Source: Nitrincola sp.
GTDB lineage: Bacteria; Pseudomonadota; Gammaproteobacteria; Pseudomonadales; Balneatricaceae
Assembly (NCBI RefSeq): GCF_048264025.1
Contig: NZ_JBLXDN010000004.1
Coordinates: 30,026 to 94,025 of the forward strand
Direction: 5' to 3'
DNA length: 64,000 nt
Part shown: positions 25,536-43,923 of the stretch, piece after piece
Layout of the letters: the number at the start of each line of letters is the position of its first letter
How positions within the stretch are numbered: the stretch's first letter is position 1
Program-made: the position numbers and the translations under genes
The notes under the pieces: model-generated
Seen by the model: the letters and a program-made list of their open reading frames with translations, nothing else
Told to the model about the DNA's origin: nothing
Databases searched by the model: none

Positions 25536-25549
25536 TAGAGGCACAGAGA

Positions 25550-28500: not shown

Positions 28501-31500
28501 ATCTGGTAATATTCTGCTGTTGGGCGCTTCGGGTGGCAAAACCTCTGATCAAGGGGAAAACAGCTATGGCATCTATGCTGCTGGTAATGCCATGTACATT
28601 GGCCGGGATCAGAACCGCAGTACCGCCGCAGGAGATATCGTCTTCGTAGGTGACTCCATGCAGTTCGTCAACACCTCAGATCAGCGTCTGCAGGTGTCTA
28701 GCAGTGGTCACCTGGTCATTCGTCCCGAGCATGACGACACCAATATCCATCTGGGCAATGCCGGCACCCGCCCCGAACTAAATGGGGTCAGTACCCTTTA
28801 TTTAGGCGAGAACTGGTTTAACGGCAGTGCCCTGGGGGTGTTTCTGCCAGGACCAGTGATCACAGCCAGTAATGTATCCACTAATGTGCAGCAACTCTCT
28901 ATACAGGGTAATGCTGGTGGTGCTTTCACTCTGGTTATCGGTGAGCAGGAAACCGCGGCCATTACCTATACCACTAACCTGACAGATCTACGTGATCAGA
29001 TTCAGGCCGCTATACAGGGGATAACCGGACATGAGGGAGCCACTGTCAGTATTTCCGGTAGTAACTTACGGATTAACTTTACCGCTGCTCCCGCCAGTCT
29101 AGTGGTCGCTGGTGGCGATACCCGCGGCTTTGAAGCGATCACGTTGGGCCGCAGTGATCTGACCGGCCAGATTCAAGTGAATGCACCCACGACTTTCCGT
29201 GATGATGTGACGTTTTTGAGTGGCACGCATGGCAGCGACTATCAGGCCAATATGGTCATTAATTCGGCATTGACCGTACAACGTCAACCCAATTCAACCC
29301 AGCATGGATTGCTGACACTGGTAGCGAATGCTTTGGATAAACGAGCGTTGGTGGCCAAAGGGTTGATTACAGCCAATCAACTTAATTTGCTGGGCGCAGG
29401 TCAGTTTATAGCGACTGCCAGTAACCAGATTGCAGGTTTCTCCGCCGAGGTGGAAGGTGATGTCACACTGCGTAACAACCAGTCACTTCAGATTACAGAA
29501 AATGAATCACTCTGGCTGGATGCTATCGATTATGCGGGTAATCCGGTTCTGACCACCCCCACCGCTCAGACAACCACAGGTATTACCCTGACCGGTGGTC
29601 GACAGCTTGAAGTGCTGCTGGATACAGGTGATTTACGCCAGTCAGAAAATGTTTTCGTTGAAAGTGGCAAAGTCAGCCTGGTGACCGGTGGTGGACGTAT
29701 TATTCAGGAAAATAATGCCATTATTCGTGCTGCTAACCTTTGGTTATCAGCTACTACGGGCATTTCAGCGTTACACAGTGATAATGAAATCGACGCCTTG
29801 GCGGGCAACTTTACTGGTAGCGCCGGGCTAGAATTTAGCAATGCTCAGACGCTGTCGATAGACGGAGTGTCGATTGATCAATATCGTGCTGATACCGCTT
29901 CAACCAGTCTGGAAGGACAAGTGAATACCACCGAGTCAGATCGAAATGGTCTGCGTGGCGCCACTGGCGCCAGTGGTGGCACACTGGCAGTTGTTGTCAG
30001 ACAGGGAGATTTGTTACAGGGTGCGACTGAAGGTAGTTCGCAGTTACGGGCACAGCGAGCGGTGCTGCTGGCTGACCAAGGTAGCCTGTTGCTACAGAAT
30101 CAAACCAATCAAATCAGTATATTAACTGCCAAAGTGAATGCTGATAATGAGGATATAACCGTGTTCAATGCCCAGGCGATGACGCTTGGTAGTGTCACCG
30201 GGCTATCTGAAGCTCTCATTACTGGCGGCACTCAAGTAGGCGCTCAGGCAGCTGAGGGTGGTAATATCACCCTGGCGACAGTCAATGGCACCTTGACGGT
30301 AGCACGAGATGTGATGACGCTTGGCAGTGGAAATATCGATTTGCGTGCCGGTGGCACAGCGTCAAATCTAGCCATTGTGCCGGAGTCTGGTCAGCTTGCT
30401 TCGATCAGCAGTGGCAGCGGACAGATACAGCTGTTGGCCGGGCAAAGTATTACTACGCAATCCACCAGCGATGCTAGCGCTGAAGTGAGCACTGCTGGCA
30501 ATGTAATGCTACAGGCGGGCAGTGCGATAGGTTCTCAACAGAATCGAATCGAACTATCCGGTGTCGATACCCTGGCAGCCACGGCAGGTAATGGCAGCAT
30601 TTGGCTGCGCAGTCTCGGTACAGATCCAATAATATTGGGTCAAGTGAATGCATTGAATTCGGCTCAGTTAGTCGGTGGTGCGGTCACTGATCTTGCTGGA
30701 CTGATTACACAGCAGGGTAATGGTAATATCACCCTGACCACTCAGGGCGGTGATATTCGTGTGGTGTCAGCGCTGAATGCCAATGGCAGTGGTTATGTTG
30801 ATTTGCGCACAGCGGGCACAGGTAATATTGACATCAATGGCGCGACAATTACCTCTGCAACCGGGACGCTGCAGTTGGTTGCGGGTGGGGCTATTGGTAC
30901 CAATACTCTGACCGGTACTCAGGCAGAGCTGGCGACAGCCGGTCAGGTGTTGCTGAGTAGTGGCGGTCAGATAGGCACAGAAACCCAGCGCATCGAGATC
31001 GCCAGTGCCGCTCAGTTGGCCTCTCAGAGTCTTGGCAGTCAGTTTATTGCGCATAGCGGTGATGATCTGGCGATCAGTCAGGTTAATGCTGTTAATAGCA
31101 GCAGTGAGCTGGATAGGAGTGTCACCTCACTCAGTGGCATGAACGCCGGTCAGGGCAGTGTAATCGATCTGGATGTAGATCAGGCACTGTCACTGAATGC
31201 GGGTATCAGCACAACAACGACTGCTGGCATTGTCCGACTGGCGGCTGCCAGCATCAGTCAGTTAGTCGACAGTGGTAGCGAAATCTTGACGCAGGGTCTG
31301 CAACTGATTTCCCGTGTCGGCGATCTGCGCTTGGAAAACACCCACAACAGTGTGACAACACTGGCGGCCCGTGCTGCAGCGGGAGCCAGTTATACCAACC
31401 TTGGAAACTTGCAGGTTGATACGGTTTCTGGGGTGCAGGGCATCACAGCGGCCACAGATATTACCCTTCGCAGTGTCGAAGGTGATTTGACCCTGCTGCA

Positions 31501-32965
31501 AGCGCTGGAGGCTGATCAAGCGGCTGGTGTGATTACCCTGCAAGCGTTGCAAGGGGGTGTCCAGTCAGGCAATGCAGCCATCAGCACCGACGCCTTGAGA
31601 CTGGTTGCGGCCCAGAGCAGCGATCTGAGTCATGCCGGCAATCAACTAAACCGTGTGGCGGTGCAGTTGTCGCAGACTCATGCCGACTTCGAGTTAGTGA
31701 ACCAGAGCGGTTTTACCCTTGACAGGGTGATCACCAGTCTTGGGCACAGCGAGAGCCAGGGGCAAACGGATGGCATTCTCACCGCCGGTGGGAATATAAA
31801 CCTGCGGATTAGTGGTAGCGGGGATCTGCAACTCGCACAACAGCTATCCACGGGTTCTCGACAGCAAGGACGTGTCAGCTTAAACGCTGCAGATGGCTCT
31901 TTACTGCGCACGGCAACCGCTGGAATGATTACTGCTAATCAGCTGCAATTGCAGGCAAGTGGGGATGCGCTGCTGACGCAGCCGCAGAATGCGCTGAATA
32001 CAGCTTCTACAACACTCTTCCGTACCGAAAATGCCAATCAGGTAGCAGTTTTGGCAGCAGACCTGGGCGGCGACCTAATGTTTGCGGGTCTGGGGAGTCT
32101 GGAAGTTGGCCAGGTGCTGACGGATGGTGTTCAGGCTGATAATGTCTGGATACGTGCTCAGCAGGATCTCAGGCTGACTCAATCGGTAGTTGCTGACGCG
32201 ACTGGATTGCGTCCAGTGATATTGTCGGCGGGTAATCAATTTTTCAACCAGACGGGTCAGGGTACTGATGCAATTCAGGCTCAGGGTGGGTGGTTGATCT
32301 ATGAGCAGAGCGTCAATGGCTTTACCCAGCGGCTGGCTGGGTTGGTACCCGATTTCAGCTTTTTCAGCACTAGCTACGAACTGCAACGTCCAGGCAATGT
32401 TAGCTTGATGGGTAACGGTTATCTGGTGGGTACGCCGATTGCCGATCCAGAACAGTATCTGCGTCTTCCGGGAACAGAGAACAACACCAGTGGTAACCCT
32501 TTGACAGAGGGTGCAGCGTCTCAGCAGCCCAGTCCTTTGCTGGTATCCCTGGCACCGGTTATCGAGTCAGATCCAGATACCAGCTATGGCATGACGCTGT
32601 CGGTACTGCCTGCCGAAAGCGGATTTGCCAGTCTGACAACCCACTCAACGGGTGGACGTACCCTGGTAGCGCCTGTCGCTATGCAGGTTAGTGCGGATAA
32701 GCCGTTCCAGACCTTGCTGGGTCGTATACTGGGCGATGCAGAGTTGATTGGTGTTTCGCTGGTTGACGGTTCGCCATTACCGGATACACTGCAACTGCTG
32801 GGTAAGGGGCCTTCATTGCGACTGGTTGGCAGCCTGCCTTTGAGCAGCTCACCGTTGTTTATACGACTGGCCATGCAGCATCCGCACAGCGGTGAACCAC
32901 AATGGGTGGATATCCTGATTGAGATCACTGCGCCTGAAGACGACACTGAAACAACAATTATCTAA
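25550..32965 (+). CDS. TpsA exoprotein, filamentous-haemagglutinin-like (N-terminal TPS secretion domain plus long beta-helical repeats)
   Basis: Extended signal peptide. TPS domain LPNGGQIVHGQGAISQAGNVMNVQQNTQNMITNWNSFNVGSQATVNFHQPGASSTVLNRVTSGDPSQIHGQINANGNVIIANPAGVMFG. The body has recurring ...NQI..L.A...GD..L.N...L.I..V... beta-helix-type units. Confidence 0.9.
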   Translation: MKKNRKYNASVRAFTPRLLPLLIASAISPMTAIAAPDANELPNGGQIVHGQGAISQAGNVMNVQQNTQNMITNWNSFNVGSQATVNFHQPGASSTVLNRVTSGDPSQIHGQINANGNVIIANPAGVMFGQSARVDVGGLMAAGQDIADQDFVEGNLQLDKMSAGGQVINQGQIHTRSGGFVILAADQVSNSGRIEAPEGTVALLAGEQARVELTAGGLIGIRVDGETATAAIQNTGVLVSDGGKVLIQSRQATGALAAAVNQTGIIRANSVAENEGRIIIDGGQGDVLLAGRVEATGLEPDLSGGYISATGDRVLVSGELDASGANAGGEVYLGGGWQGQDAAIAEARQVHIEMGARVTADATVEGDGGQIALWSSEVTTHAGVISARGAGDGQGGAVETSSRGALGVTGEVDVSATTGQGGLWLLDPENITVVTPGGVNWDGAGAGNVSVSNTSIQNTLNTGGNVILQADDSITIAANISKTSGGDARLTFDAGGNITLNTGIDISATTGRLHLDFGTTLPSTGTAFINGRLATNGGTVTFWKDAQMGASNPVSTQITGIVGGTGPYTSGDIIFKQDLLLAASDANVTLGAQGQSDGGFTGLGGDIRIEGDIYSVEAANQLLRPQSLTLDTRGTSAGAIVLGSDASNFVGGNGQSALRQLSFLGPQTITLNAGLINLLSPSGAVITAGSTLGTPELQLNAAHTIININGGTVSGVTGYTDYVQDTFDIRGMSTAESLVINSDRSIKILNQQIAADRAEGMDVILNPFVAADALGGAVIMLEAAILTNGGNIFLGGASNLTNAGVVNNADVDQFAAGFAGDSDSRTDGVFLQNVQLDSRGTDTDGLINISGRAPLAQSAGAGVRIAGAATRIESGRNDIQVIGRVTTQTNAGNKDGVIIGEGSAARSLLATSSGNLIVEGDASAVVNPSGGTRYNGLMLSSGVLLRTETGDIQLTGRGGGGNQNFIQENHGIRMEDLNTSVISESGNILLLGASGGKTSDQGENSYGIYAAGNAMYIGRDQNRSTAAGDIVFVGDSMQFVNTSDQRLQVSSSGHLVIRPEHDDTNIHLGNAGTRPELNGVSTLYLGENWFNGSALGVFLPGPVITASNVSTNVQQLSIQGNAGGAFTLVIGEQETAAITYTTNLTDLRDQIQAAIQGITGHEGATVSISGSNLRINFTAAPASLVVAGGDTRGFEAITLGRSDLTGQIQVNAPTTFRDDVTFLSGTHGSDYQANMVINSALTVQRQPNSTQHGLLTLVANALDKRALVAKGLITANQLNLLGAGQFIATASNQIAGFSAEVEGDVTLRNNQSLQITENESLWLDAIDYAGNPVLTTPTAQTTTGITLTGGRQLEVLLDTGDLRQSENVFVESGKVSLVTGGGRIIQENNAIIRAANLWLSATTGISALHSDNEIDALAGNFTGSAGLEFSNAQTLSIDGVSIDQYRADTASTSLEGQVNTTESDRNGLRGATGASGGTLAVVVRQGDLLQGATEGSSQLRAQRAVLLADQGSLLLQNQTNQISILTAKVNADNEDITVFNAQAMTLGSVTGLSEALITGGTQVGAQAAEGGNITLATVNGTLTVARDVMTLGSGNIDLRAGGTASNLAIVPESGQLASISSGSGQIQLLAGQSITTQSTSDASAEVSTAGNVMLQAGSAIGSQQNRIELSGVDTLAATAGNGSIWLRSLGTDPIILGQVNALNSAQLVGGAVTDLAGLITQQGNGNITLTTQGGDIRVVSALNANGSGYVDLRTAGTGNIDINGATITSATGTLQLVAGGAIGTNTLTGTQAELATAGQVLLSSGGQIGTETQRIEIASAAQLASQSLGSQFIAHSGDDLAISQVNAVNSSSELDRSVTSLSGMNAGQGSVIDLDVDQALSLNAGISTTTTAGIVRLAAASISQLVDSGSEILTQGLQLISRVGDLRLENTHNSVTTLAARAAAGASYTNLGNLQVDTVSGVQGITAATDITLRSVEGDLTLLQALEADQAAGVITLQALQGGVQSGNAAISTDALRLVAAQSSDLSHAGNQLNRVAVQLSQTHADFELVNQSGFTLDRVITSLGHSESQGQTDGILTAGGNINLRISGSGDLQLAQQLSTGSRQQGRVSLNAADGSLLRTATAGMITANQLQLQASGDALLTQPQNALNTASTTLFRTENANQVAVLAADLGGDLMFAGLGSLEVGQVLTDGVQADNVWIRAQQDLRLTQSVVADATGLRPVILSAGNQFFNQTGQGTDAIQAQGGWLIYEQSVNGFTQRLAGLVPDFSFFSTSYELQRPGNVSLMGNGYLVGTPIADPEQYLRLPGTENNTSGNPLTEGAASQQPSPLLVSLAPVIESDPDTSYGMTLSVLPAESGFASLTTHSTGGRTLVAPVAMQVSADKPFQTLLGRILGDAELIGVSLVDGSPLPDTLQLLGKGPSLRLVGSLPLSSSPLFIRLAMQHPHSGEPQWVDILIEITAPEDDTETTII

Positions 32966-32987: not shown

Positions 32988-33290
32988 ATGAGTGATGAAA
33001 ACGAACTGAAATCAGCCGCACAAGCTAACCCTGCCCAGTCGCCCAAAATCCACTGGGACGACAGTGAAATGCAGACTAACTATTCCAATGTCTGCAATGT
33101 CATGGGTACGCGTGAGGAGATCATGTTGCTGTTCGGTTCCAATCAGGCCTGGCAAACGGGTCAGACCGAAGTGAAGGTTAAATTATCCAATCGTATTCTG
33201 CTGACACCCCATGCGGCGAAACGCCTCAAGGTATTGCTGGAAATGGGCCTGAAAGAATATGAAACCAGATTCGGTGAAGTCAAACTCTGA
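32988..33290 (+). CDS. DUF3467-family small protein (100 aa)
   Basis: AGAGGA sits 7 nt upstream of ATG 32988. YSNVCNVMGTREEIMLLFG ... RILLTPHAAKRLKVLLEMGLKEYETRFGEV matches the DUF3467 pattern as I remember it. The longer ORF from 32919 would overlap the tpsA 3' end and was not used. Confidence 0.75.
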   Translation: MSDENELKSAAQANPAQSPKIHWDDSEMQTNYSNVCNVMGTREEIMLLFGSNQAWQTGQTEVKVKLSNRILLTPHAAKRLKVLLEMGLKEYETRFGEVKL

Positions 33291-35082
33291 TATTGCTGTG
33301 ACAGAATCATCCAACGACTGGCTCGGACAGCTACAACAGGCGTCTGAGCCAGATTTTTTTGTACGTTGGCTGGCGTTGTTACAGCAGGAGTTGCCAGGTC
33401 TTGAAGAGGCCGTATTGGTATTGGGACCAGCTGATCAGGGGCCTTTCAAGCCCATTGTGACACATCCACAGAACACCCCCTGTTCATCGGTGTTGATGCG
33501 CTTGTGCGAACAGGTTATGCAACTACGCCGTCCGTTGAGTCAGCGTAATGAGTCTGTGACCCACTGGGTAGTGCCTATTCAACAGGGTGGTGCACTACTG
33601 GGGGTATTGGGTCTGACGGCTAAGAGTCTCTCGACACAGCAACGCCAATGGCTGCAGTGGGGCCTGGGGTGGATACTGACCCGTACCGAGACTTATCAGC
33701 AGGCTGGAGACAGTGAGCTGAGTGAACGTCTGATGGTGCTGCTGGATCTGTTGATGTCCTCTGTTGGAGGGCAGTCATTGCAGGATGCTTGTCAGGCTGT
33801 TTTGTCTCAGGCTGCTGTGAATCTGGGTTGTGATCGAATAGCGCTGGGCTTTGCTACCGGGCAGAGTGTTCGCATGGTAACCCTCTCCAACAGTGCTGAA
33901 TTCACCCGCAGAATCGATCTGGTGCAGTGTATTGAAGGTGCCATGAACGAGGCCGTGGACCAGGGGCATAGTCTATGCTGGCCGCAGCAACAGACCAGTC
34001 TCGATACCTTCAGAGCACATCAGGCGTTAATTCGTGAGCAGGGTAATCACACGGTATTGACGGTACCCTTCATGACGGATGTCGAAAATTACGGCGCCAT
34101 CTGTTTCGAGTGGGCTGAAGCGCCTGATGAACAGCAGCCAGAGTTAGCTGAATCCATTGCCAGTGTTGTTGGCCGCGTGCTGTTGGAAAAGCGTCAGTCA
34201 GAACTGTCTTTGCTCAGTTATCTGGGCCGGCGCGTGAAACATGTCTGCAAGCGTCTGGTCGGGCCTCGCTACCTGGGCACCAAGCTGCTGGTGTTGTTAG
34301 TGACCGTGAGCGTGATATTTTTTACCTTGGCTGAAGGCACTTTCCGCTTAGCATCAGATGCTCGCCTTGAAGGGGCATCGAACCGCACTCTTTCGGCTCC
34401 CTTTGACAGCTATGTTATGGTTGCCCATTACCGTGCGGGTCAGACCGTGGAAGAAGGCGAGGTGCTGGCCGAGCTGGATGACAGTGATCTGCGCCTTGAG
34501 CAACTTCGCTGGCAGAGCCAGTTAGCACAGTTTGAACGTCAAATGCGCCAGTCCCAGGCGCAACGCGATACGGCTCAGGCAAGGGTTGCTGCCGCACAGA
34601 CCGAGCAGGCCGAAGCTCAACTGGCACTGACCAACTCATTGCTCAGCCGCACGCAGATTCGCGCACCCTTTACGGCGCTGATTACGCGAGGTGATCTATC
34701 CCAAGACTTGGGCCTGCCGGTTACCAAAGGGCAAGTGCTGTTTGAGCTGGCGCCACTGGATGAATATCGTTTAGTCCTGGATCTGGCAGAAACTGATATG
34801 GCACATATTCGTGAAGGGCAGCAAGGCCAGTTGGTTCTGAAAGCCTTTCCAGAGGCCAGAATCGATTTCGAGGTGATTAGCGTAACGCCCGTGGCCGAAG
34901 CTCGTGATGGCAAGAACCTGTTTCGCGTTGAAGCTGAAATCGCTCAGCTGTTACCCGCTATGCGTCCTGGTATGGAAGGTGTGGCAAAAGTGGAGGTCAG
35001 TCAGCAGCGTTTGATCTGGATATGGACACGTACACTGGTAGACTGGGCACGTCTGCAATGGTGGAAGTGGTTGGGGCGCTAA
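33259..35082 (+). CDS. Tandem GAF-like cytoplasmic domains, 1 TM, then a periplasmic HlyD-family adaptor
   Basis: The ATG at 33259 overlaps the upstream gene by 32 nt; an in-frame GTG at 33298 is the alternative start. GAF-like blocks (ACQAVLSQAAVNLGCDRIALGF ... VLTVPFMTDVENYGAICFEW). TM LLVLLVTVSVIFFTLA. HlyD features: lipoyl-like hairpin VAHYRAGQTVEEGEVLAELDD, a coiled coil, and TQIRAPFTALITR. Confidence 0.8.
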   Translation: MKPDSVKSNSDIAVTESSNDWLGQLQQASEPDFFVRWLALLQQELPGLEEAVLVLGPADQGPFKPIVTHPQNTPCSSVLMRLCEQVMQLRRPLSQRNESVTHWVVPIQQGGALLGVLGLTAKSLSTQQRQWLQWGLGWILTRTETYQQAGDSELSERLMVLLDLLMSSVGGQSLQDACQAVLSQAAVNLGCDRIALGFATGQSVRMVTLSNSAEFTRRIDLVQCIEGAMNEAVDQGHSLCWPQQQTSLDTFRAHQALIREQGNHTVLTVPFMTDVENYGAICFEWAEAPDEQQPELAESIASVVGRVLLEKRQSELSLLSYLGRRVKHVCKRLVGPRYLGTKLLVLLVTVSVIFFTLAEGTFRLASDARLEGASNRTLSAPFDSYVMVAHYRAGQTVEEGEVLAELDDSDLRLEQLRWQSQLAQFERQMRQSQAQRDTAQARVAAAQTEQAEAQLALTNSLLSRTQIRAPFTALITRGDLSQDLGLPVTKGQVLFELAPLDEYRLVLDLAETDMAHIREGQQGQLVLKAFPEARIDFEVISVTPVAEARDGKNLFRVEAEIAQLLPAMRPGMEGVAKVEVSQQRLIWIWTRTLVDWARLQWWKWLGR

Positions 35083-37238
35083 TGTCTTCTCTTTTTTCAG
35101 CGTCCTGGTATCGCTTGGCAGATCTGGTCCCTCGGCTACGTACACAAACCCGGATTTTTCGGCATGTCTATCGTGGTCAGCGCTGGCATGTCATTCAGGA
35201 TTTAGCCAGTGGCAAATTCTTGCGTCTGAACCCCACAGCTTACAGTATCCTCTCGCTGGTGGATGGACAGTCTACGCTTGATCAAATCTGGAAACAGGCG
35301 GTTGAGCAGTTGCAGGATGATGCGCCGAGTCAGGATGAGGTGCTGCAGTTGATGACGCAGTTAAACCAGATCGGTGTACTGACCAGCAATCGAACTCCCG
35401 ATATTGAAGAGCTTAGCGAACGCTCTATCAAAGCACGACGCAATCGTGTTAAACAATATATTGCCAACCCATTGGCGCTAAGGGTGCCATTGATTGATCC
35501 GGATCGTTTTTTGCAGCACTTAGTGGGTCATATTCCAGTCTGGGCACGACCGCTGCTGCTGACTATCTGGTTAGTCACTGTGGTGTTCGGTATCAGTCTT
35601 GCGGCACTTCACTGGCCCGAACTGACCGGTGATCTGACACGACTGGTATTTACCCCGGAGTATATTTTTACGCTGATCCTGGTGTTTCCACTGATCAAAG
35701 CGATCCATGAATTGGGACATGGTATTGCGATCAAACTGTTTGGTGGCCAGTGTCATGAAATGGGGTTGATGTTTCTGGTGATGGTCCCGATTCCCTACGT
35801 TGATGCCAGTCATGCCATAGCATTTAAGAGCAAATACCAGCGTATGCTGGTGGGCGCTGCCGGGATGATGATTGAGCTATTTGTTGCCAGTCTCGCACTG
35901 TGGCTCTGGACCTGGACACAGCCGGGACTGCTGAGGGTCTTTCTACACGATATTGTGATCCTCGCGGGTGTGGTAACGCTGTTATTCAACTTGAACCCTT
36001 TATTAAGATTCGATGGTTACTACATTTTCAGTGACTGGCTGGAAATTCCCAATCTGGGGAATAAAGCGAATCAGTATTTTGGCTATTTACTGAAACGTTA
36101 CTTGTTGCGTATTGACCGAGGCTTACAGCCGCCACGTCTAACGGCTGGAGAACCGGCTTGGTTGATTAGCTTTGCACTGTTGTCTTTTGTATATCGGATG
36201 TTCATTGTCGGGATGATTCTGCTGTTTGTCGCCTCCCAGTTTTTTGTCATCGGGGTGCTGCTGGCGGCCTATGCGTTCTTTTTGATGATTTTGATGCCGT
36301 TGAGTCGTACCCTCAAGACAGCCTTTAGCGATCCATTAATCAGTGAAAAGCGTCCTCGTCTGTACCTGGTCAGTTTCACGGCTGTTAGTCTGCTGGTAGG
36401 GTTGGTCGGGGTGCTGCCCTTGCCATCAGCGACCTTTGTAGAGGGGGTGGTGTGGATGCCGGAGCAGTCACAGGTACGCGCACGGACCGACTGTTTTGGT
36501 CAGCAGGTACTACACAACCCCGGGGTCGTGAAAGCCGATGAGCCCCTGCTATACTGTGATGAGCCTGTATTGCCAGCCGAGCTGCAGGAAACGCAGGCAC
36601 GTTTGGCTGAGCTGGATGCGGAGTTGCTGCTGGCGAGAGGGACAGACAGAGTCCTGGCACAAAATCTTCTGGAAGAGCGCCAGCATGTTGAGCAGCGTGT
36701 TGCTACGCTTGAACAGCGTATTGATGCCTTCGAAATTCGCAGTCCACATGCGGGTGAATTTGTGATGTCATCGCCTGATGACTTTATGGGTCGCTGGTAT
36801 CATCGTGGCGATATTATTGGCTATCTGCTGGATCCTAGCCACTTCACTTTACTTGTTGCTGTTGATCAGGCCGATGTTGACCGTATTCGCAGTGACAGTG
36901 TCAGTATTGCTATGCGTTCTGCCGACTCAGTACATCAGTCACACCCACTTCGAATATTGCGAGCTGTGCCAGCAGCCACGCGTGATCTGCCAAGCCTGGC
37001 GTTGTCATTGCAAGGGGGAGGGCGTATTGGCTTAAGCCCTGACGGAGCGCCGGGAAGTCGGCCTCAGGCACTCAATCCGGTATTTCTGTTCGAACTGGAA
37101 CTGCTGCAGCCCGAAAACTTTGCGGTACAGGCTTTGGGTGGACGTGTCTATGTTCGCTTTGCGCATACCGATGAGTCAGCGGCACGGCAGATATACCGTC
37201 ACCTGCGTGAACTCTTTATTCGTCGTTTTGGAATCTGA
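35082..37238 (+). CDS. PqqD/RRE-like domain, polytopic M50 (site-2-protease-type) metallopeptidase and C-terminal HlyD-like domain, fused
   Basis: Start at the ATG of TAATG (35080-35084), overlapping the upstream stop. N-terminal FLRLNPTAYSILSLVDGQSTLDQIWKQAVEQL...VLQLMTQLNQIGVL is PqqD-like. HELGH at 35706-35720; NPLLRFDG at 35994-36017. Several TM helices. The C-terminal coiled coil plus FEIRSPHAGEF is HlyD-like. Confidence 0.8.
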   Translation: MSSLFSASWYRLADLVPRLRTQTRIFRHVYRGQRWHVIQDLASGKFLRLNPTAYSILSLVDGQSTLDQIWKQAVEQLQDDAPSQDEVLQLMTQLNQIGVLTSNRTPDIEELSERSIKARRNRVKQYIANPLALRVPLIDPDRFLQHLVGHIPVWARPLLLTIWLVTVVFGISLAALHWPELTGDLTRLVFTPEYIFTLILVFPLIKAIHELGHGIAIKLFGGQCHEMGLMFLVMVPIPYVDASHAIAFKSKYQRMLVGAAGMMIELFVASLALWLWTWTQPGLLRVFLHDIVILAGVVTLLFNLNPLLRFDGYYIFSDWLEIPNLGNKANQYFGYLLKRYLLRIDRGLQPPRLTAGEPAWLISFALLSFVYRMFIVGMILLFVASQFFVIGVLLAAYAFFLMILMPLSRTLKTAFSDPLISEKRPRLYLVSFTAVSLLVGLVGVLPLPSATFVEGVVWMPEQSQVRARTDCFGQQVLHNPGVVKADEPLLYCDEPVLPAELQETQARLAELDAELLLARGTDRVLAQNLLEERQHVEQRVATLEQRIDAFEIRSPHAGEFVMSSPDDFMGRWYHRGDIIGYLLDPSHFTLLVAVDQADVDRIRSDSVSIAMRSADSVHQSHPLRILRAVPAATRDLPSLALSLQGGGRIGLSPDGAPGSRPQALNPVFLFELELLQPENFAVQALGGRVYVRFAHTDESAARQIYRHLRELFIRRFGI

Positions 37239-37241
37239 TCC

Positions 37242-39221
37242 ATGTATGCATTGCAAACACGCACTGTTCAGTATCCGCAACGTACAGATTGGCATGAAGA
37301 TCCCTTGTTAGTGCGATTCTGGGACCGCGGTGCGACGTTGTTTCGTCGGCTGATTCTGATGAATGAAGCGCGACAAAAGGCATTCGTACGGGCGGTGTCA
37401 AAGTGTGAAATGGAACTGCAGGGGGCAACGTCTGAAGTGTTACAGCAGGCTTTATGTGATGTGCGCCTGCATTTGCGTCGGGAGGGTCTACAGCAGCGGC
37501 ATTTGGCACAGGCTTTTGCACTGGTGCGTGTGGCATCGCAACAGACGCTAGGGTTACGCCATCATGATGTACAGATTCGTGGCGGCCATGCCTTAGTGCA
37601 GGGTTTTCTGATCGAAATGAATACCGGCGAAGGTAAAACACTGACGGCTACCCTGGCCGCTGCTGTGGCGGCACTGTCAGGTCGACAAGTTCAGGTGGTG
37701 ACGGTCAATGATTATCTGGCTCAACGGGATGCTACTGAAATGCAGCCTCTCTATGAATGGTTGGGGCTACGCATCGCCTGGGTGCTTGAACAGGCCGGAC
37801 CGGCTGAACGACGCCAGGCCTATCAGGCTGATATTGTGTACTGCACCGGAAAAACGCTGACCTTTGACTACCTCAAGGACCGTATCGCTCTGGATGATCG
37901 TGTATCGCCTTTAAAAATGTTACTGGATGCCTACACCGGTCGCTGGCAACAACAGGTGCTCTTGCCAGGATTGCAGTTTGCCATAGTGGATGAAGTGGAC
38001 AGCATTCTGATCGATGAAGCACGCACACCGCTGATTATTTCATCCTCTGGCGGCTCAGCAGAAGAAGACGCTTTTTATGTCAGCGCGATTGAATTCGCCC
38101 AGCAACTGCGACAGGCAGAACATTTTCAATTCAGCGAAAACCGTCAGTTGATTGACCTGACACTGGCTGGACGTCATCTGCTGGAGCAACTGACTGCTGA
38201 AGCGGAAGGGCTGTGGTGTAACCGTTTTCGGCGAGAAGAAGCGATATTGCAAGCACTCAGTGCATTGCATCGCTTTCAACGGGATATTCATTATATTGTT
38301 CGCGACGACAAGGTGCTGATTGTTGATGAACATACTGGGCGGATCATGCCAGATCGTTCCTGGGAGAAAGGTATGCAGCAGCTGATTGAGGTCAAGGAGA
38401 GTGTTTCCTTGACACCGCCTCGTGTCACTCTGGCAAAAATCAGTTTTCAGCTGTTCTTTCGTCGCTTTCTGCAACTTTCCGGAATGTCGGGCACCTGTCG
38501 TGAAATTGCCGGGGAGATCAGTCGGGTGTACAACCTGCGGATGATCCGTATCCCGCCGCATAAACCCAGCCAACGTGTACAACATGCCAATCAGTTATTC
38601 GCCGATGTAGAGCAAAAATGGCTGGCAGTTGAAGCCTGTATTATTGAGTGCCAGCAACGCGGGCAGCCGGTGCTGGTTGGGACCCGTTCGATTTTAGCCG
38701 CAGATACCTTATCATCGCGCCTGCAGTCCCGTGGCGTTGAGCACCAATTATTACATGCCCGCCAGGATGAAACTGAGGCAGAAATTGTTGCACAGGCAGG
38801 GCAGCGCGGGCGCGTCACCATCGCTACGAATATGGCTGGACGAGGAACCGATATCAAACTGCAAGCGGGTGTAGCTGAACTGGGTGGTTTGCATGTACTG
38901 ATCACTGAGTTGCATGATAATCAGCGTATCGATCGGCAATTAATTGGCCGTTGTGCTCGACAGGGCGAACCCGGTAGTTGGCAGGAAATATTGTCACTTG
39001 AGGATGAGCTGGTGGCCAACTGGTTACCTGTATTAAATCGTCTACTGAGCCTGTTGTTGCGCTCTGCTCCTGAAAATCGAGCAATTCAATGGATGGCCCG
39101 CCGCTATTACCGATCCGCACAGTGGATGCTGGAGCGCTTACACCGGCGTATTCGTGCCAAACTGCTTAAGGCCGAATTCAATTTGCGCCGGTCACTTTCT
39201 TTTACCGGTAAGATGGAGTAA
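37242..39221 (+). CDS. Truncated SecA-like ATPase (659 aa; NBD1, reduced preprotein-binding region, NBD2; no C-terminal scaffold/wing/linker)
   Basis: Collinear with E. coli SecA. LGLRHHDVQIRGGHALVQGFLIEMNTGEGKTLTATLAAAVAAL (GEGKT at 37626-37640), VVTVNDYLAQRD, FAIVDEVDSILIDEARTPLIIS (DEVD at 37989-38000), YIVRDDKVLIVDEHTGR, GMSGT, PVLVGT, TIATNMAGRGTDIKL, GGLHVLITELHDNQRIDRQLIGRCARQGEPGS. The protein ends about 75 aa after the last motif. Confidence 0.9.
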   Translation: MYALQTRTVQYPQRTDWHEDPLLVRFWDRGATLFRRLILMNEARQKAFVRAVSKCEMELQGATSEVLQQALCDVRLHLRREGLQQRHLAQAFALVRVASQQTLGLRHHDVQIRGGHALVQGFLIEMNTGEGKTLTATLAAAVAALSGRQVQVVTVNDYLAQRDATEMQPLYEWLGLRIAWVLEQAGPAERRQAYQADIVYCTGKTLTFDYLKDRIALDDRVSPLKMLLDAYTGRWQQQVLLPGLQFAIVDEVDSILIDEARTPLIISSSGGSAEEDAFYVSAIEFAQQLRQAEHFQFSENRQLIDLTLAGRHLLEQLTAEAEGLWCNRFRREEAILQALSALHRFQRDIHYIVRDDKVLIVDEHTGRIMPDRSWEKGMQQLIEVKESVSLTPPRVTLAKISFQLFFRRFLQLSGMSGTCREIAGEISRVYNLRMIRIPPHKPSQRVQHANQLFADVEQKWLAVEACIIECQQRGQPVLVGTRSILAADTLSSRLQSRGVEHQLLHARQDETEAEIVAQAGQRGRVTIATNMAGRGTDIKLQAGVAELGGLHVLITELHDNQRIDRQLIGRCARQGEPGSWQEILSLEDELVANWLPVLNRLLSLLLRSAPENRAIQWMARRYYRSAQWMLERLHRRIRAKLLKAEFNLRRSLSFTGKME

Positions 39222-39224
39222 ATC

Positions 39225-39950
39225 ATGCGTTGGATGAAACAACAGATAGCTGCCGGGTTTTGCGTACTTGCCGTTGCTGTACCTATTCAGGCAACTGAGC
39301 TGTCAGTGCTGAGTTGTTTGCTGGAACCTTCACTGGATGCCGAGTTAGGTGTGCCTGTTGAGGGTGTGCTGGCTAAGGTTCATGCTGAGCGTTCGGTAAG
39401 GGTAGAGCAGGGTGCCGTATTGGCAGAGCTGGACCTCTCGGTAGAGCAAGCGATAATTAGCATGCAGCGTGCTCGCGAAAATTATGCCAGTCGGCGTCTG
39501 GAGCGCATTCAGGAGTTGCAATCAGGCAACCTGATACCCGCTCAGGAAGTGGATGACATCCGCACTGAGCAGCAACTGGCCCGCCTTGAGCTGGCTGTCC
39601 AGCAGGAACAATTGGAACTGCGCCGAGTGGTTAGTCCATTTTCCGGTATCATTGTGGAACGCTATGCTGATGTCGGTGACTTGATACAAAAAAGTCATAT
39701 TTTTCGATTAGTGCAGTTGGACCCGCTTTATGTTGAGGTGGTGATGACACTGGATCAATTTGGTCGGGTCGTTCCCGGCGACAGGTATCAGGTACATTTG
39801 CAACATCTAGAGACACAGCATGATGCTGAAGTGATTGCTGTTGATCCGATTATAGATGCCGGAAGTGGTACCTTTCGCGTGCGTCTGTCATTACCCAATC
39901 CGGATTCGCATATCCCGGCAGGTTTGAGTTGTAGTATTAACCCACTTTAA
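39225..39950 (+). CDS. Small (241 aa) periplasmic HlyD/MFP-type adaptor with signal peptide
   Basis: ATG lies 3 nt after the SecA-like stop. Signal peptide AAGFCVLAVAVPIQA. Lipoyl-like VEGVLAKVHAERSVRVEQGAVLAELD; short coiled coil; RRVVSPFSGIIVERYADVGD; beta-barrel-like FRVRLSLPNPD. Confidence 0.75.
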   Translation: MRWMKQQIAAGFCVLAVAVPIQATELSVLSCLLEPSLDAELGVPVEGVLAKVHAERSVRVEQGAVLAELDLSVEQAIISMQRARENYASRRLERIQELQSGNLIPAQEVDDIRTEQQLARLELAVQQEQLELRRVVSPFSGIIVERYADVGDLIQKSHIFRLVQLDPLYVEVVMTLDQFGRVVPGDRYQVHLQHLETQHDAEVIAVDPIIDAGSGTFRVRLSLPNPDSHIPAGLSCSINPL

Positions 39951-40008: not shown

Positions 40009-40752
40009 ATGTATAAGAAACTGGTTCCACTGAACAAAGAACATCATCAACAATTGCGTATCCAGCCGATCAATGGCTTTCAGTTTGCAGCTGGTGTGCA
40101 CGTTGCCGCCGTTATGCTGCATGAGTTTGCCCGCGCCTCCGCGATTTACCCGATAGTGTTTCTTGAAGATCAGGCTCAGGATAAATTCTATCCCGTTGCT
40201 CTATTAGGTCTGGAGCAGAATGAGAATCTGTTTGTGACCGATGAAGGACGTTGGCAAGCCTCCTACATTCCCGCTGTAATTCGGCGTTATCCATTTGCAT
40301 TGGCTCGTTCGGGTGAAGACGAAGTGTTTACCGTCTGTATTGACGAAGACGCCGAATTGGTTAGTACCCAGGAAGGTAATCCGTTGTTCTCTGATACCGG
40401 TGAACCTGCTGAGGTGATTGAACAGGTCAAACGCTATTTGGGTGAGTTACAGCAAATGGAAGTGATCACTGAAGCATTTTGTCGGTTTCTGCAAAGCCAC
40501 AATCTGTTTACACCGCTAAATATGCAGGTTCGTGTGGGTAATAAAGTACAAAATGTGACCGGGTGCTATGTTGTGAATGAGCAGCGTTTTGCCAATCTTT
40601 CTGACGAGCTTTTTCTACAGATTCGTCATCAGCACTATCTGGCACCCATCTATGCACACCTGACTTCACTGTCGCGTACTGAAAATCTGGCGCTACTTAA
40701 GCAGGGTATTACATCGGTTAGTCAACCCTCGGATGACGACCAGGTTCATTAA
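40009..40752 (+). CDS. SapC-family protein
   Basis: HEFARASAIYPIVFLEDQAQDKFYPVALLGLEQNENLFVTDEGRWQASYIPAVIRRYPFAL is the characteristic SapC-family core. Confidence 0.85.
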   Translation: MYKKLVPLNKEHHQQLRIQPINGFQFAAGVHVAAVMLHEFARASAIYPIVFLEDQAQDKFYPVALLGLEQNENLFVTDEGRWQASYIPAVIRRYPFALARSGEDEVFTVCIDEDAELVSTQEGNPLFSDTGEPAEVIEQVKRYLGELQQMEVITEAFCRFLQSHNLFTPLNMQVRVGNKVQNVTGCYVVNEQRFANLSDELFLQIRHQHYLAPIYAHLTSLSRTENLALLKQGITSVSQPSDDDQVH

Positions 40753-43921: not shown

Positions 43922-43923
43922 GA

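What the first reader, a model, noticed from the sequence alone, without database searches (positions are those of the whole stretch)
35082..37238. Three-part fusion: PqqD/RRE-like peptide-recognition domain, M50 intramembrane metalloprotease and periplasmic HlyD-like domain
The N-terminal ~100 aa looks like the PqqD-type winged-helix RiPP recognition element that binds leader peptides (WYRLADLVPRLR...FLRLNPTAYSILSLVDGQSTLDQIWKQAVEQL...VLQLMTQLNQIGVL).

It is followed by a multi-TM M50 core. Both zinc-binding and catalytic motifs are intact (HELGH and NPLLRFDG).

The protein ends in a coiled-coil plus beta-barrel segment resembling a membrane-fusion adaptor (AELQETQARLAELDAELLLA...FEIRSPHAGEFV).

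One polypeptide therefore combines substrate-leader recognition (cytoplasm), intramembrane cleavage (membrane) and docking towards the outer membrane (periplasm). Related stand-alone M50 proteins such as B. subtilis YydH act in peptide maturation and export. This architecture suggests leader cleavage coupled to export.
Basis: partly seen in the sequence, partly recalled or inferred. Interest (0 to 1): 0.75.

Follow-up and report, generated by a model that had tools for sequence, protein, structure and literature searches.

The report
Leader-binding protease-adaptor of a giant-adhesin exporter
This gene encodes a real three-part membrane protein: a peptide-leader-binding domain, an intramembrane zinc protease and a periplasmic adaptor. 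It is the core of a widespread four-gene, SecA-like-powered export module that was noticed computationally in 2015 but never studied, and that here sits beside a giant adhesin carrying a matching leader-like signal.

Summary
ORF 35082-37238 (718 aa) has three parts:
- an N-terminal PqqD/RRE domain (Pfam above threshold; beta3-alpha3 fold; Foldseek hits to leader-binding TbiB1);
- a 7-TM site-2-protease core, with HExxH and NPxxxxDG invariant in 84 relatives;
- a C-terminal periplasmic-adaptor fold (Foldseek MacA/MexA/AcrA, E about 1e-10).

Seven TM helices plus the positive-inside rule place the RRE in the cytoplasm and the adaptor in the periplasm.

The protein is not a curiosity. More than 4000 50%-identity clusters share the architecture. 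In 83 loci it is flanked almost invariably by a GAF-HlyD protein, a truncated SecA-like ATPase and a short HlyD protein. Kamneva et al. (2015) described this module in silico and left its role unknown; they mentioned no RRE or cargo.

A giant cadherin/Ig-repeat gene is usually adjacent. Wherever their N-termini are visible, these giants carry a basic stretch plus E-x-[LM]-E-P-R-x-L-F-S-A-D. This resembles the ELExMEAP leader read by the homologous daptide RRE-protease MpaP.

Best reading: leader recognition and cleavage coupled to ABC-independent tripartite export of the giant adhesin. TpsA and DUF3467 are unlikely substrates. The function is inferred, not shown.

The parts
35082..37238 (+). 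Target ORF, 718 aa: RRE / 7-TM M50 protease / periplasmic adaptor fusion
   Evidence: It is 100% identical to a Nitrincola sp. protein that NCBI names 'PqqD family peptide modification chaperone'.
35130..35384 (+). PqqD/RRE domain (aa 17-101), predicted cytoplasmic
   Evidence: Pfam PF05402 E 1.4e-8, above the gathering score. Beta3-alpha3 fold. Foldseek TbiB1/lasso B1/CteB. PDB PqqD 3g2b.
35544..36410 (+). Seven-helix membrane core with the S2P/M50 fold (aa 155-443)
   Evidence: Helices 155-176, 192-219, 251-278, 283-303, 357-386, 389-415 and 424-443. Hydropathy and K/R distribution. Foldseek 3b4r. NF041824 E 3.9e-47.
35706..35720 (+). HELGH zinc-binding/catalytic motif (aa 209-213), in the inner-leaflet half of TM2
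   Evidence: H209, E210 and H213 are invariant in 84 of 84 relatives.
35994..36017 (+). NPLLRFDG motif (aa 305-312); it supplies the third zinc ligand, D311, at the cytoplasmic end of TM4
   Evidence: N303, N305, P306 and D311 are invariant in 84 of 84 relatives.
36417..37235 (+). Periplasmic adaptor (MFP/PAP)-like domain (aa 446-718), with the alpha-hairpin at aa 496-548
   Evidence: The top 50 Foldseek hits are all PAPs, E down to 1.1e-10. hhalign to the neighbouring HlyD protein gives 95.5%. pLDDT is mostly 85-94.
33259..35082 (+). GAF-HlyD protein (607 aa): about 338 aa cytoplasmic N-terminus with GAF, one TM helix (339-357), periplasmic adaptor
   Evidence: Present next to the target in 72 of 73 loci. 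Its stop overlaps the target start.
37242..39221 (+). Truncated SecA-like ATPase (659 aa): NBD1 + PPXD + NBD2, without the wing domain, two-helix finger or C-terminal tail
   Evidence: Pfam SecA_DEAD, SecA_PP_bind and P-loop_SecA. Aligns only to B. subtilis SecA residues 35-604. GEGKT, DEVD and TNMAGRG motifs are intact. Present in 69 of 70 loci.
39225..39950 (+). Short HlyD/RND-type adaptor (241 aa) with an N-terminal signal or anchor
   Evidence: Present in 59 of 63 loci.
4861..23427 (+). Giant 6188-aa protein, the proposed cargo: N-terminal leader-like motif, DUF4347 domain, cadherin-like/Ig/RTX-like repeats, no hydrophobic signal peptide
   Evidence: A giant gene or DUF4347 gene is adjacent in at least 33 of 59 loci.
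5002..5034 (+). Leader-like motif ELLEQRFMLSG (giant aa 48-58). Family consensus: h-h-E-x-[LM]-E-P-R-h-L-[FL]-S-A-[DG]
   Evidence: Alignment of 14 giant N-termini. A six-frame regex finds one hit in the window and 13 in 1.28 Mb of loci, all at the N-terminus of a cassette-adjacent ORF. Found in 63-81 of 120 public DUF4347 N-terminal fragments.
5167..5652 (+). DUF4347 domain of the giant protein (aa 103-264)
   Evidence: Pfam E 9e-54.
2175..4805 (+). TolC-like outer-membrane factor (876 aa) with an N-terminal AMIN domain; candidate outer-membrane exit duct
   Evidence: Pfam OEP E 1.2e-56 and AMIN E 9e-9. OEP genes lie inside the cassette in L059 and L068.
32988..33290 (+). DUF3467 protein (100 aa), a frequent cassette companion of unknown role (possibly a chaperone or adaptor)
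   Evidence: Pfam E 9.5e-25. Sits between the giant gene and GAF-HlyD in L001, L003 and others. Detected in 29 of 68 loci.
40009..40752 (+). SapC-family protein, an occasional cassette companion
   Evidence: Pfam SapC E 1e-74. Also in L005, L007, L022, L024 and L079.
23415..32965 (+). TpsB (POTRA_2+ShlB) and TpsA (TPS domain, 2471 aa) pair, recurrently linked to the cassette but not part of the core
   Evidence: Downstream of the cassette in L001, L003 and L008-L015. TpsA has a classical Sec signal peptide.

Best explanation
The ORF encodes the inner-membrane core subunit of an ABC-independent, T1SS-like tripartite export machine dedicated to giant repeat adhesins.

**Proposed mechanism.**
1. 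The cytoplasmic RRE domain binds the N-terminal leader of the giant protein: a basic stretch followed by E-x-[LM]-E-P-R-x-L-F-S-A-D.
2. The truncated SecA-like ATPase, which keeps its preprotein clamp but lacks the SecY-inserting finger, feeds the unfolded chain N-to-C into a conduit.
3. That conduit is built from an oligomer of the 7-TM protein together with the GAF-HlyD and short HlyD adaptors.
4. The three adaptor domains form the periplasmic tunnel to the TolC-like AMIN-OEP protein.
5. The S2P active site sits in the inner leaflet on the same side as the RRE. It clips the leader, as the homologous RRE-S2P MpaP does for daptide precursors.

**Shown here:** domain folds, topology, active-site conservation, module synteny, adjacency of giant genes, and the leader-like motif.

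**Inferred:** RRE-leader binding, cleavage, direction of transport, identity of the inner-membrane pore, and use of the OEP.
For: - Three-domain architecture and N-in/C-out topology.
- Catalytic H/E/H/D invariant in 84 of 84 relatives.
- aa 18-405 are homologous end-to-end to the daptide RRE-dependent leader peptidase (E 3.9e-47). Its substrates carry the leader motif ELExMEAP (PMC10028931).
- Module conservation where the flanks allow a test: GAF-HlyD 72/73, SecA-like 69/70, short HlyD 59/63. Start/stop overlap and 3-nt gaps indicate one operon.
- There is no ABC, RND or MFS transporter in the module. The SecA-like ATPase motifs are intact, but the protein ends at the equivalent of B. subtilis SecA residue ~604.
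- A giant gene is adjacent: 6188 aa here, 14916 aa in Magnetococcus marinus, 9206 aa in Azoarcus communis.
- The giant has no hydrophobic signal peptide but has a highly specific N-terminal motif. It occurs once in the window and in 13 of the fetched loci, at the N-terminus of a cassette-adjacent ORF in every case.
- A reciprocal look-up from a DUF4347 protein recovered the full cassette immediately upstream (L085).
- An OEP gene lies in the window and inside some cassettes.
- Kamneva et al. independently proposed a secretion role, with SecA_DEAD as the ATPase and the M50 protein as a possible pore (PMC4452313).
Against: - There is no experimental datum for any member. In M. extorquens AM1 the M50, SecA and HlyD genes were barely expressed in exponential phase.
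- The resemblance between the giant's motif and the daptide leader is short (E-x-[LM]-E-[PA]) and could be coincidental.
- Giant genes are not visible within 10 kb in some loci, for example L065.
- Three of four DUF4347 genes looked up on long contigs had no cassette within 10 kb.
- The giants also share a C-terminal GRIxW motif and weak RTX repeats, so a C-terminal signal is possible.
- S2P folds are not known to form protein-conducting pores, and the SecA-like protein lacks the elements that canonical SecA uses to engage a channel.
- Only monomer models were available.
Confidence: 0.5

Rival explanations
1. The machine and cargo are the same, but the logic is reversed. The giant adhesin is exported C-terminus first, as in a classical T1SS, using its C-terminal GRIxW and basic-tail signal. 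Its N-terminus stays tethered by the RRE. The M50 protease then acts as a regulated release or clearance protease, analogous to LapG release of LapA-type adhesins, possibly controlled through the GAF domain and second messengers.
For: - A semi-conserved C-terminal motif occurs in about half of 23 giant C-termini.
- Weak RTX repeats and cadherin-like repeats are typical of T1SS adhesins.
- A GAF domain lies on the long adaptor, and an EAL protein and a PAS histidine kinase are nearby.
Against: - There is no ABC transporter.
- A SecA-type motor moves chains N-to-C in every characterised case (established knowledge).
- The N-terminal motif is much better conserved than the C-terminal one.
- The closest characterised homologue is a leader peptidase, not a release protease.
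Confidence: 0.15
2. The protein matures and exports a small RiPP-like or bacteriocin peptide, as YydH or the daptide MpaP do. The giant gene would be only a neighbour.
For: - The RRE-S2P architecture is so far characterised only in RiPP pathways.
- YydH/LiaK similarity, E 3e-9.
Against: - No short ORF with a leader-like motif was found. The motif regex hits only the giant gene in all six frames of the 64-kb window.
- No modifying enzymes (radical SAM, aminotransferase, methyltransferase, YcaO) lie in the module.
- The NF041824 and NF058609 scores are far below their equivalog cutoffs.
- The module is consistently linked with giant genes.
Confidence: 0.07
3. The M50 core serves mainly as the structural inner-membrane pore or scaffold of the exporter, and the RRE domain is a docking site for the SecA-like ATPase or DUF3467. 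Proteolysis would not be part of the transport cycle.
For: - Kamneva et al. proposed the M50 protein as the pore substitute for the missing ABC transporter.
- No other polytopic membrane protein is in the module.
Against: Absolute invariance of all four catalytic or zinc-binding residues and the NxNP motif across 84 sequences at 37-100% identity argues for retained catalysis. The RRE fold is a dedicated peptide-binding module.
Confidence: 0.1
4. It is a regulatory site-2 protease that releases a membrane-tethered transcription or anti-sigma factor (regulated intramembrane proteolysis).
For: It has the S2P fold and motifs.
Against: - No PDZ or CBS domains and no sigma/anti-sigma genes are in the module.
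- It is fused to a periplasmic adaptor and strictly syntenic with secretion-type genes.
Confidence: 0.03

Closest known systems
Secondary SecA_DEAD / T1SS-like conserved locus of Kamneva, Poudel & Ward 2015 (PLoS One 10:e0129066; PMC4452313)
   Same: The four-gene module is the same: GAF-HlyD, Peptidase_M50-like TM protein with HlyD, SecA_DEAD protein, short HlyD/biotin-lipoyl protein, and sometimes OEP. Their S2 Table lists the M. marinus MC-1 'peptidase, M50 family' proteins Mmc1_2176 and Mmc1_2198. The MC-1 protein P0073 is a full-length relative of the target, 49% identical.
   Different: That study was purely comparative and called the biological role 'completely unknown'. It does not mention the PqqD/RRE domain, giant neighbours, any cargo or any leader motif.
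Daptide RRE-dependent intramembrane leader peptidase MpaP (NCBIfam NF041824; PMC10028931)
   Same: An N-terminal RRE is fused to an S2P/M50 core. The alignment covers model positions 2-364 of 379 (E 3.9e-47). The substrate leader has an acidic E-L-E-x-M-E-A-P motif that resembles the giant's E-x-[LM]-E-P-R.
   Different: - The score is 161 bits against the equivalog cutoff of 300.
- MpaP has no adaptor domain and no SecA-like partner.
- Its substrates are short peptides in Gram-positive BGCs with modifying enzymes, none of which occur here.
YydH/LiaK epipeptide maturation metalloproteases (NCBIfam NF058609)
   Same: An M50-type membrane protease that processes a ribosomal peptide (E 3e-9 over aa 181-327).
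   Different: - Only the protease core matches, at 36.8 bits against a cutoff of 225.
- YydH/LiaK have no RRE match and no adaptor.
- They are partnered with an ABC transporter rather than a SecA-like ATPase (own knowledge).
Peptidase-containing ABC transporter (PCAT) bacteriocin exporters with HlyD-type accessory protein and TolC, e.g. colicin V CvaAB-TolC (own knowledge)
   Same: The logic matches: an N-terminal leader is recognised and cleaved by a protease that is physically part of the exporter, concurrently with one-step transport through an adaptor and TolC duct.
   Different: The parts are non-homologous: C39 cysteine protease against RRE+S2P, and ABC NBD/TMD against SecA-like ATPase plus the 7-TM core. 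PCAT cargoes are small peptides, not proteins of 6000-15000 aa.
Periplasmic adaptor proteins MacA, MexA, AcrA (PDB 3fpp, 1vf7, 6iok, 5nik)
   Same: Lipoyl / alpha-hairpin / beta-barrel fold (Foldseek E 1e-10 to 1e-8, target-normalised TM 0.5-0.67). The hairpin length is comparable to MexA/AcrA.
   Different: - It is covalently fused to a polytopic protease instead of a single anchor or lipid.
- Sequence similarity is too low for Pfam/NCBIfam HlyD models.
- Three different adaptor-type proteins occur in one module.
Classical T1SS for RTX/LapA-type giant adhesins (HlyBD-TolC, LapBCE) (own knowledge; PMC8277102)
   Same: Adaptor(s) plus a TolC-like duct are encoded next to a giant repeat adhesin that lacks a Sec signal peptide.
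   Different: There is no ABC transporter, the conserved signal is N-terminal, and the motor is SecA-like.
SecA-like domains embedded in giant Omnitrophota/Actinobacteria proteins (bioRxiv 10.1101/2023.11.21.568195)
   Same: SecA_DEAD plus a preprotein-binding domain, lacking the scaffold and wing domains, associated with giant proteins.
   Different: There the SecA-like domains are part of the giant polypeptide. No M50/RRE/HlyD module is described.

Membership tests
PqqD / RiPP recognition element (RRE) | Match to Pfam PF05402 above the gathering score | tested here: met
   35.3 bits against 23.4, E 1.4e-8, aa 36-100. PDB PqqD 3g2b E 0.0018 with the family profile.
PqqD / RiPP recognition element (RRE) | Three-stranded antiparallel sheet followed by three helices (winged helix-turn-helix) | tested here: met
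   DSSP shows E23-30, E33-40, E46-49, H51-58, H66-80, H84-97 in two independent models. Foldseek TbiB1, lasso B1 and CteB: probability 0.97-1.0; target-normalised TM 0.67-0.76 for TbiB1/B1.
PqqD / RiPP recognition element (RRE) | Binds a precursor leader peptide | not testable with these tools
   No complex prediction or binding assay was available. The candidate ligand motif was identified.
Peptidase M50 / site-2 protease | HExxH within a TM helix, plus a second motif supplying an Asp zinc ligand (NxxPxxxxDG-like) | tested here: met
   HELGH lies in helix 192-219. N303-L-N305-P306-LLRF-D311-G312 follows helix 283-303. All are invariant in 84 of 84 relatives.
Peptidase M50 / site-2 protease | Pfam PF02163 above the gathering score | tested here: not met
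   19.0 bits against 27.2, aa 198-276 only. Some relatives do carry a precomputed PF02163 hit.
Peptidase M50 / site-2 protease | S2P core fold | tested here: met
   The best Foldseek hit of the aa 1-448 model is M. jannaschii S2P 3b4r_A: probability 1.0, target-normalised TM 0.52, 231 columns, but a modest E of 2.8e-3.
Peptidase M50 / site-2 protease | Zinc-dependent proteolytic activity | not testable with these tools
   Needs biochemistry.
Daptide leader peptidase MpaP (NF041824 equivalog) | Score at or above the curated equivalog cutoff | tested here: not met
   161.2 bits against 300. It is a homologue, not an equivalog.
Daptide leader peptidase MpaP (NF041824 equivalog) | Daptide BGC context: short precursors ending in Thr, DUF-RRE, dehydrogenase, aminotransferase, methyltransferase | tested here: not met
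   None of these occur among the window neighbours or the 83 loci.
Periplasmic adaptor / membrane fusion protein (HlyD family) | Match to Pfam/NCBIfam HlyD-type models | tested here: not met
   No hit on aa 446-718. There is only a weak MexJ hit, E 0.2.
Periplasmic adaptor / membrane fusion protein (HlyD family) | Lipoyl + alpha-helical hairpin + beta-barrel fold | tested here: met
   All top 50 Foldseek PDB hits are PAPs, E down to 1.1e-10. hhalign to the adjacent HlyD-family protein: 95.5%, E 1.6e-8.
Periplasmic adaptor / membrane fusion protein (HlyD family) | Periplasmic location after an inner-membrane anchor | tested here: met
   Seven TM helices; K/R-rich loops at 248-254, 302-356 and 406-426 are predicted inside; K/R-poor loops at 177-187 and 274-282 are predicted outside. 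This is prediction only.
Periplasmic adaptor / membrane fusion protein (HlyD family) | Contacts an outer-membrane factor | not testable with these tools
   An OEP gene is present at 2175-4805, but the interaction is untested.
Type I secretion system | Dedicated ABC transporter | tested here: not met
   No ABC exporter lies in the module in the window or in the 83 loci. The only ABC genes in the window (42902-46814, minus strand) are an Opp-like importer.
Type I secretion system | MFP and TolC-like OMF | tested here: met
   Three adaptor-type proteins and one OEP protein.
Type I secretion system | Cargo with a C-terminal signal and RTX repeats | tested here: inconclusive
   Weak HemolysinCabind hit, E 6.5e-5. 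Semi-conserved C-terminal GRIxW motif.
Secondary-SecA_DEAD T1SS-like module (Kamneva et al. 2015) | Co-encoded GAF-HlyD, M50-like TM protein, SecA_DEAD protein lacking the C-terminal SecA domains, and a short HlyD/biotin-lipoyl protein | tested here: met
   All four are contiguous at 33259-39950. The same order is seen in 59-72 of 63-73 testable loci.
Secondary-SecA_DEAD T1SS-like module (Kamneva et al. 2015) | Orthology to the M50 members listed in their S2 Table | tested here: met
   [quoted passage not shown] Mmc1_2176 and Mmc1_2198 are listed.

The most novel reading that the evidence does not exclude
The module is a distinct class of envelope-spanning protein secretion system. Megadalton adhesins carry an N-terminal, RiPP-style leader (basic stretch plus E-x-[LM]-E-P-R-x-L-F-S-A-D). 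An RRE domain reads this leader, a SecA-like motor threads the chain N-terminus first through a pore built from site-2-protease subunits and three kinds of adaptor into a TolC-like duct, and the S2P active site removes the leader. RiPP leader-recognition logic would thus have been recruited for secretion of the largest bacterial proteins. The widespread 'LEPRxLFSAD' N-terminal motif would be a previously unrecognised secretion signal.
Probability: 0.4. Interest if true: 0.9.

Novelty: new member of a known kind. Interest (0 to 1): 0.65.

Why it matters
- **An open question about giant proteins.** Bacterial proteins of 5000-15000 aa that lack both a Sec signal peptide and an ABC-type T1SS partner have no established export route. 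This protein family (more than 4000 clusters at 50% identity, at least 595 species' genomes) sits at the centre of a conserved module. That module has been known only as a genomic curiosity since 2015.
- **A testable mechanism.** Recognising that its N-terminus is a bona fide RRE homologous to a characterised leader peptidase, and that the neighbouring giants carry a specific leader-like motif, turns 'role completely unknown' into a concrete hypothesis. That hypothesis specifies a signal, a receptor domain, a protease site, a motor and a duct.
- **What it would change if correct.** It would extend RRE biology beyond small natural products. It would define a new secretion signal useful for annotating giant adhesins. 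It would also show a SecA paralogue working without SecYEG.
- **Where to test it.** Tractable hosts exist: Ruegeria pomeroyi SPO2714, Methylobacterium extorquens META1p2401 and Bordetella avium BAV1942.

Tried and rejected
- **HlyD models.** Pfam and NCBIfam gave no HlyD hit on the C-terminus. The claim had to be settled by structure prediction, Foldseek and hhalign. hhalign to the short HlyD neighbour was not significant (8%).
- **PDB sequence search.** The family profile gave only weak PqqD and MexJ hits. DUF3467 has no PDB relative by sequence, so its role stays open.
- **Disulfide idea.** I considered the invariant Cys471/Cys492 pair as evidence for a periplasmic disulfide. I rejected it because both are variable in the wider set of 84 sequences.
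- **Literature.** Searches combining PqqD/M50/HlyD/SecA, SapC/giant, DUF3467, DUF4347, site-2 protease/MFP and PqqD+SecA found nothing on this protein. The last search found Kamneva et al. 2015.
- **Homologue search with the giant N-terminus.** It returned only short fragments under 500 aa. It could therefore not show cargo sizes; I used it only for motif statistics.
- **Reciprocal look-ups.** Starting from DUF4347 proteins on long contigs, the cassette was adjacent in only 1 of 4 cases.
- **Chlorochromatium link.** I tried to connect the horizontally acquired secA (Cag_1676) to this module through the preprint's supplement. Nothing was held there.
- **Rejected cargoes.** TpsA has a Sec signal peptide, its own TpsB and a variable position. 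DUF3467 has no motif and is not universal.
- **Rejected memberships.** Daptide or YydH equivalog membership fails because the scores are far below cutoff and the context is wrong.

Full report
**1. The observation**

The ATG at 35082 overlaps the TAA stop of the upstream gene (TAATG). The next gene starts 3 nt after the stop. The identical protein exists in a Nitrincola sp. genome, where NCBI names it 'PqqD family peptide modification chaperone'.

**2. The three domains**

*N-terminus.* Pfam PqqD is above its gathering score (aa 36-100, E 1.4e-8). A family profile finds X. campestris PqqD in the PDB. Two AlphaFold models (full length: pLDDT 82.9; aa 1-448: pLDDT 76.1) give three strands followed by three helices. 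Foldseek of the N-terminal model finds the leader-binding proteins TbiB1, lasso-peptide B1 and the RRE of CteB, with probability 0.97-1.0 and target-normalised TM 0.67-0.76 for the stand-alone RRE proteins TbiB1/B1.

*Middle.* The NCBIfam model for the daptide intramembrane metalloprotease aligns over aa 18-405 (E 3.9e-47), and YydH/LiaK over aa 181-327 (E 3e-9). The best structural match of the N-terminal model is the M. jannaschii site-2 protease 3b4r. H209, E210, H213, N303, N305, P306 and D311 are invariant in 84 family members at 37-100% identity. Pfam M50 itself is below threshold, so this is a divergent S2P-type protease with an intact active site.

*C-terminus.* No HlyD model matches by sequence. 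However, the model shows strands, a 26+26-residue alpha-hairpin (496-548) and a beta-barrel. All 50 best Foldseek hits in the PDB are periplasmic adaptor proteins (MacA, MexA, AcrA, TMexC, CusB, ZneB, EmrA; E down to 1.1e-10). hhalign links the region to the adjacent HlyD-family protein at 95.5% probability.

**3. Topology**

The model has seven long hydrophobic helices: 155-176, 192-219, 251-278, 283-303, 357-386, 389-415 and 424-443. Loops predicted inside are K/R-rich, and loops predicted outside are K/R-poor. With the RRE in the cytoplasm, the adaptor domain is periplasmic. Both protease motifs lie at the cytoplasmic ends of TM2 and TM4, on the RRE side.

**4. Context: a conserved four-gene module**

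The family is large.
- More than 5000 hits in the 90%-clustered database, the best 120 of them essentially all about 715 aa.
- 4018 clusters at 50% identity with E <= 1e-30, the best 150 nearly all full length.
- At least 595 species' genomes.

I examined 83 loci from Gamma-, Beta- and Alphaproteobacteria, Magnetococcales, Desulfobacterota, Myxococcota, Methylomirabilota and others. The flanking genes, counted where the flanks allow a test, are:

| Neighbour | Position | Present |
|---|---|---|
| GAF-HlyD protein | upstream | 72/73 |
| SecA-like protein | downstream | 69/70 |
| Short HlyD protein | downstream | 59/63 |

The SecA-like protein (659 aa) keeps NBD1, the preprotein cross-linking domain and NBD2. 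Its GEGKT, DEVD and TNMAGRG motifs are intact. It aligns only to B. subtilis SecA residues 35-604, so the wing domain, two-helix finger and C-terminal tail are absent. The long adaptor has a roughly 338-aa cytoplasmic N-terminus with a GAF domain and one TM helix. The short adaptor has only an N-terminal signal or anchor. No ABC, RND or MFS transporter belongs to the module. A TolC-like OEP protein with an AMIN domain lies at 2175-4805, and OEP genes lie inside the cassette in L059 and L068.

**5. Prior description**

The last literature search found Kamneva, Poudel & Ward 2015 (PMC4452313). [quoted passage not shown] These are co-encoded with a GAF-HlyD protein, a Peptidase_M50-like protein carrying HlyD domains, and a HlyD/biotin-lipoyl protein, sometimes with OEP. 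They suggested a T1SS-related secretion function, with SecA_DEAD as the ATPase and the M50 protein as a possible pore. They stated that the biological role is 'completely unknown'.

Their S2 Table lists the M. marinus MC-1 M50 proteins Mmc1_2176 and Mmc1_2198. The MC-1 protein P0073 is a 49% identical, full-length relative of the target with the same neighbours. The window's gene is thus a new member of that module. The paper does not mention PqqD/RRE, giant genes, adhesins, cargo or leaders.

**6. The likely cargo**

A giant gene lies immediately upstream of the module:

| Organism | Size of the giant protein |
|---|---|
| This window | 6188 aa |
| M. marinus MC-1 | 14916 aa |
| Azoarcus communis | 9206 aa |

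A giant ORF or a DUF4347-type gene is visible in at least 33 of 59 loci with enough flank. This is a lower bound: in L075 the upstream cadherin/Big_9 gene is merely split into two ORFs.

The window's giant has a DUF4347 domain (aa 103-264), cadherin-like, Ig and weak RTX repeats, and no hydrophobic signal peptide. Fourteen giant N-termini align to a short basic stretch followed by h-h-E-x-[LM]-E-P-R-h-L-[FL]-S-A-[DG]; in the window this is ELLEQRFMLSG, nt 5002-5034.

A regex for this motif, applied to all six frames, hits once in the 64-kb window and 13 times in 1.28 Mb of loci. Every hit is at the extreme N-terminus of an ORF next to the module. Among 120 public DUF4347 N-terminal fragments, 63 (strict pattern) to 81 (relaxed pattern) carry the motif, mostly at residues 10-30.

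The daptide study, which discovered that RiPP class through RRE domains fused to an intramembrane S2P, reports the leader motif ELExMEAP. It assigns leader removal to that RRE-dependent peptidase (PMC10028931). The resemblance between E-x-M-E-A-P and E-x-[LM]-E-P-R is short but suggestive, given the homology of the two enzymes.

**7. Mechanism proposed**

1. The RRE binds the giant's N-terminal leader in the cytoplasm.
2. The SecA-like ATPase drives the unfolded chain N-to-C into a conduit formed by oligomers of the 7-TM protein and the anchors of the two other adaptors.
3. The three adaptor domains bridge to the TolC-like duct.
4. The S2P site, on the cytoplasmic leaflet next to the RRE, removes the leader.

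The logic parallels peptidase-containing ABC exporters of bacteriocins, but with non-homologous parts. The folds, topology, conservation, synteny and motif are shown. Binding, cleavage, directionality, pore identity and OEP use are inferred.

**8. Caveats and rivals**

- No member has been studied experimentally. In M. extorquens the downstream genes were barely expressed in exponential phase.
- Some loci have no giant within 10 kb (L065).
- Of four DUF4347 genes looked up on long contigs, only one (L085) has the module adjacent.
- Giant C-termini share an acidic tract, an Ala/Leu-rich stretch, a GRIxW motif and a basic tail in about half of 23 cases. C-terminus-first export, with the protease acting as a release enzyme, therefore cannot be excluded.
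- A small-peptide (RiPP) cargo is unlikely: there is no precursor-like ORF and there are no modifying enzymes.
- A purely structural role for the M50 core conflicts with absolute conservation of the catalytic residues.
- A regulatory-RIP role lacks any supporting context.
- TpsA (Sec signal peptide, own TpsB, variable position) and DUF3467 (29 of 68 loci, no motif) are unlikely substrates. DUF3467 may be a chaperone or adaptor.

**9. Verdict**

The protein belongs to a module already noticed in 2015, so it is a new member of a known but experimentally uncharacterised kind. What appears unreported in the searchable literature is the RRE assignment in this context, the giant-adhesin cargo, and the leader-like N-terminal signal.

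- Interest: 0.65
- Confidence in the mechanism: about 0.5

Noticed in passing
window 2175-4805 (+): The TolC-like outer-membrane factor is unusually long (876 aa). It carries an AMIN domain (aa 286-365) in an N-terminal extension ahead of the OEP repeats.
   Followed up: partly
window 23398-23424 (+); C-termini of upstream giants in L001, L003, L009, L015-L017, L031, L049: Giant proteins end with an acidic low-complexity tract, an Ala/Leu-rich stretch, a semi-conserved G-R-I-x-W motif and often a basic tail (window: ...PGRILWGWNG-stop). This may be a second sorting or anchoring signal.
   Followed up: partly
window 23415-32965 (+); L001, L003, L008-L015: A TpsB/TpsA two-partner secretion pair recurs next to the module. 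Its position varies: between the giant gene and DUF3467 here and in L005, and downstream of the short HlyD gene elsewhere. Its functional link to the module is unknown.
   Followed up: partly
window 33259-35082 (+), 41567-42355 (+), 80-2014 (+): The long adaptor has a cytoplasmic GAF domain. An EAL-domain protein and an SBP-PAS histidine kinase lie in the same region. This hints at second-messenger control like that of LapA-type adhesins.
   Followed up: no
window 32988-33290 (+) and 40009-40752 (+): DUF3467 (100 aa) and SapC-family proteins are recurrent but non-universal companions of the module. A 2026 preprint (10.64898/2026.03.19.712371) reports sapC and tolC flanking the giant symbiosis genes of Chlorochromatium, plus a horizontally acquired secA. 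That may be the same machinery.
   Followed up: partly
L085 4650-7170; L075 26-7451: In long-read metagenome assemblies the target homologue (L085) and an upstream giant cadherin/Big_9 gene (L075) are split into several ORFs by apparent frameshifts. Gene-call-based surveys will therefore undercount both the module and the giant cargoes.
   Followed up: yes
L087 10001-10942 and 19096-19983: Two DUF4347-type genes lie on one contig with no module within 10 kb. This suggests several cargoes per genome served in trans, or an alternative export route.
   Followed up: no
window 35022 / 35058 / 35082: There are three in-frame ATG candidates for the target. An 87% identical relative is annotated from the equivalent of 35058 (MVEVVG...). 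Family conservation begins at the 35082 start.
   Followed up: yes
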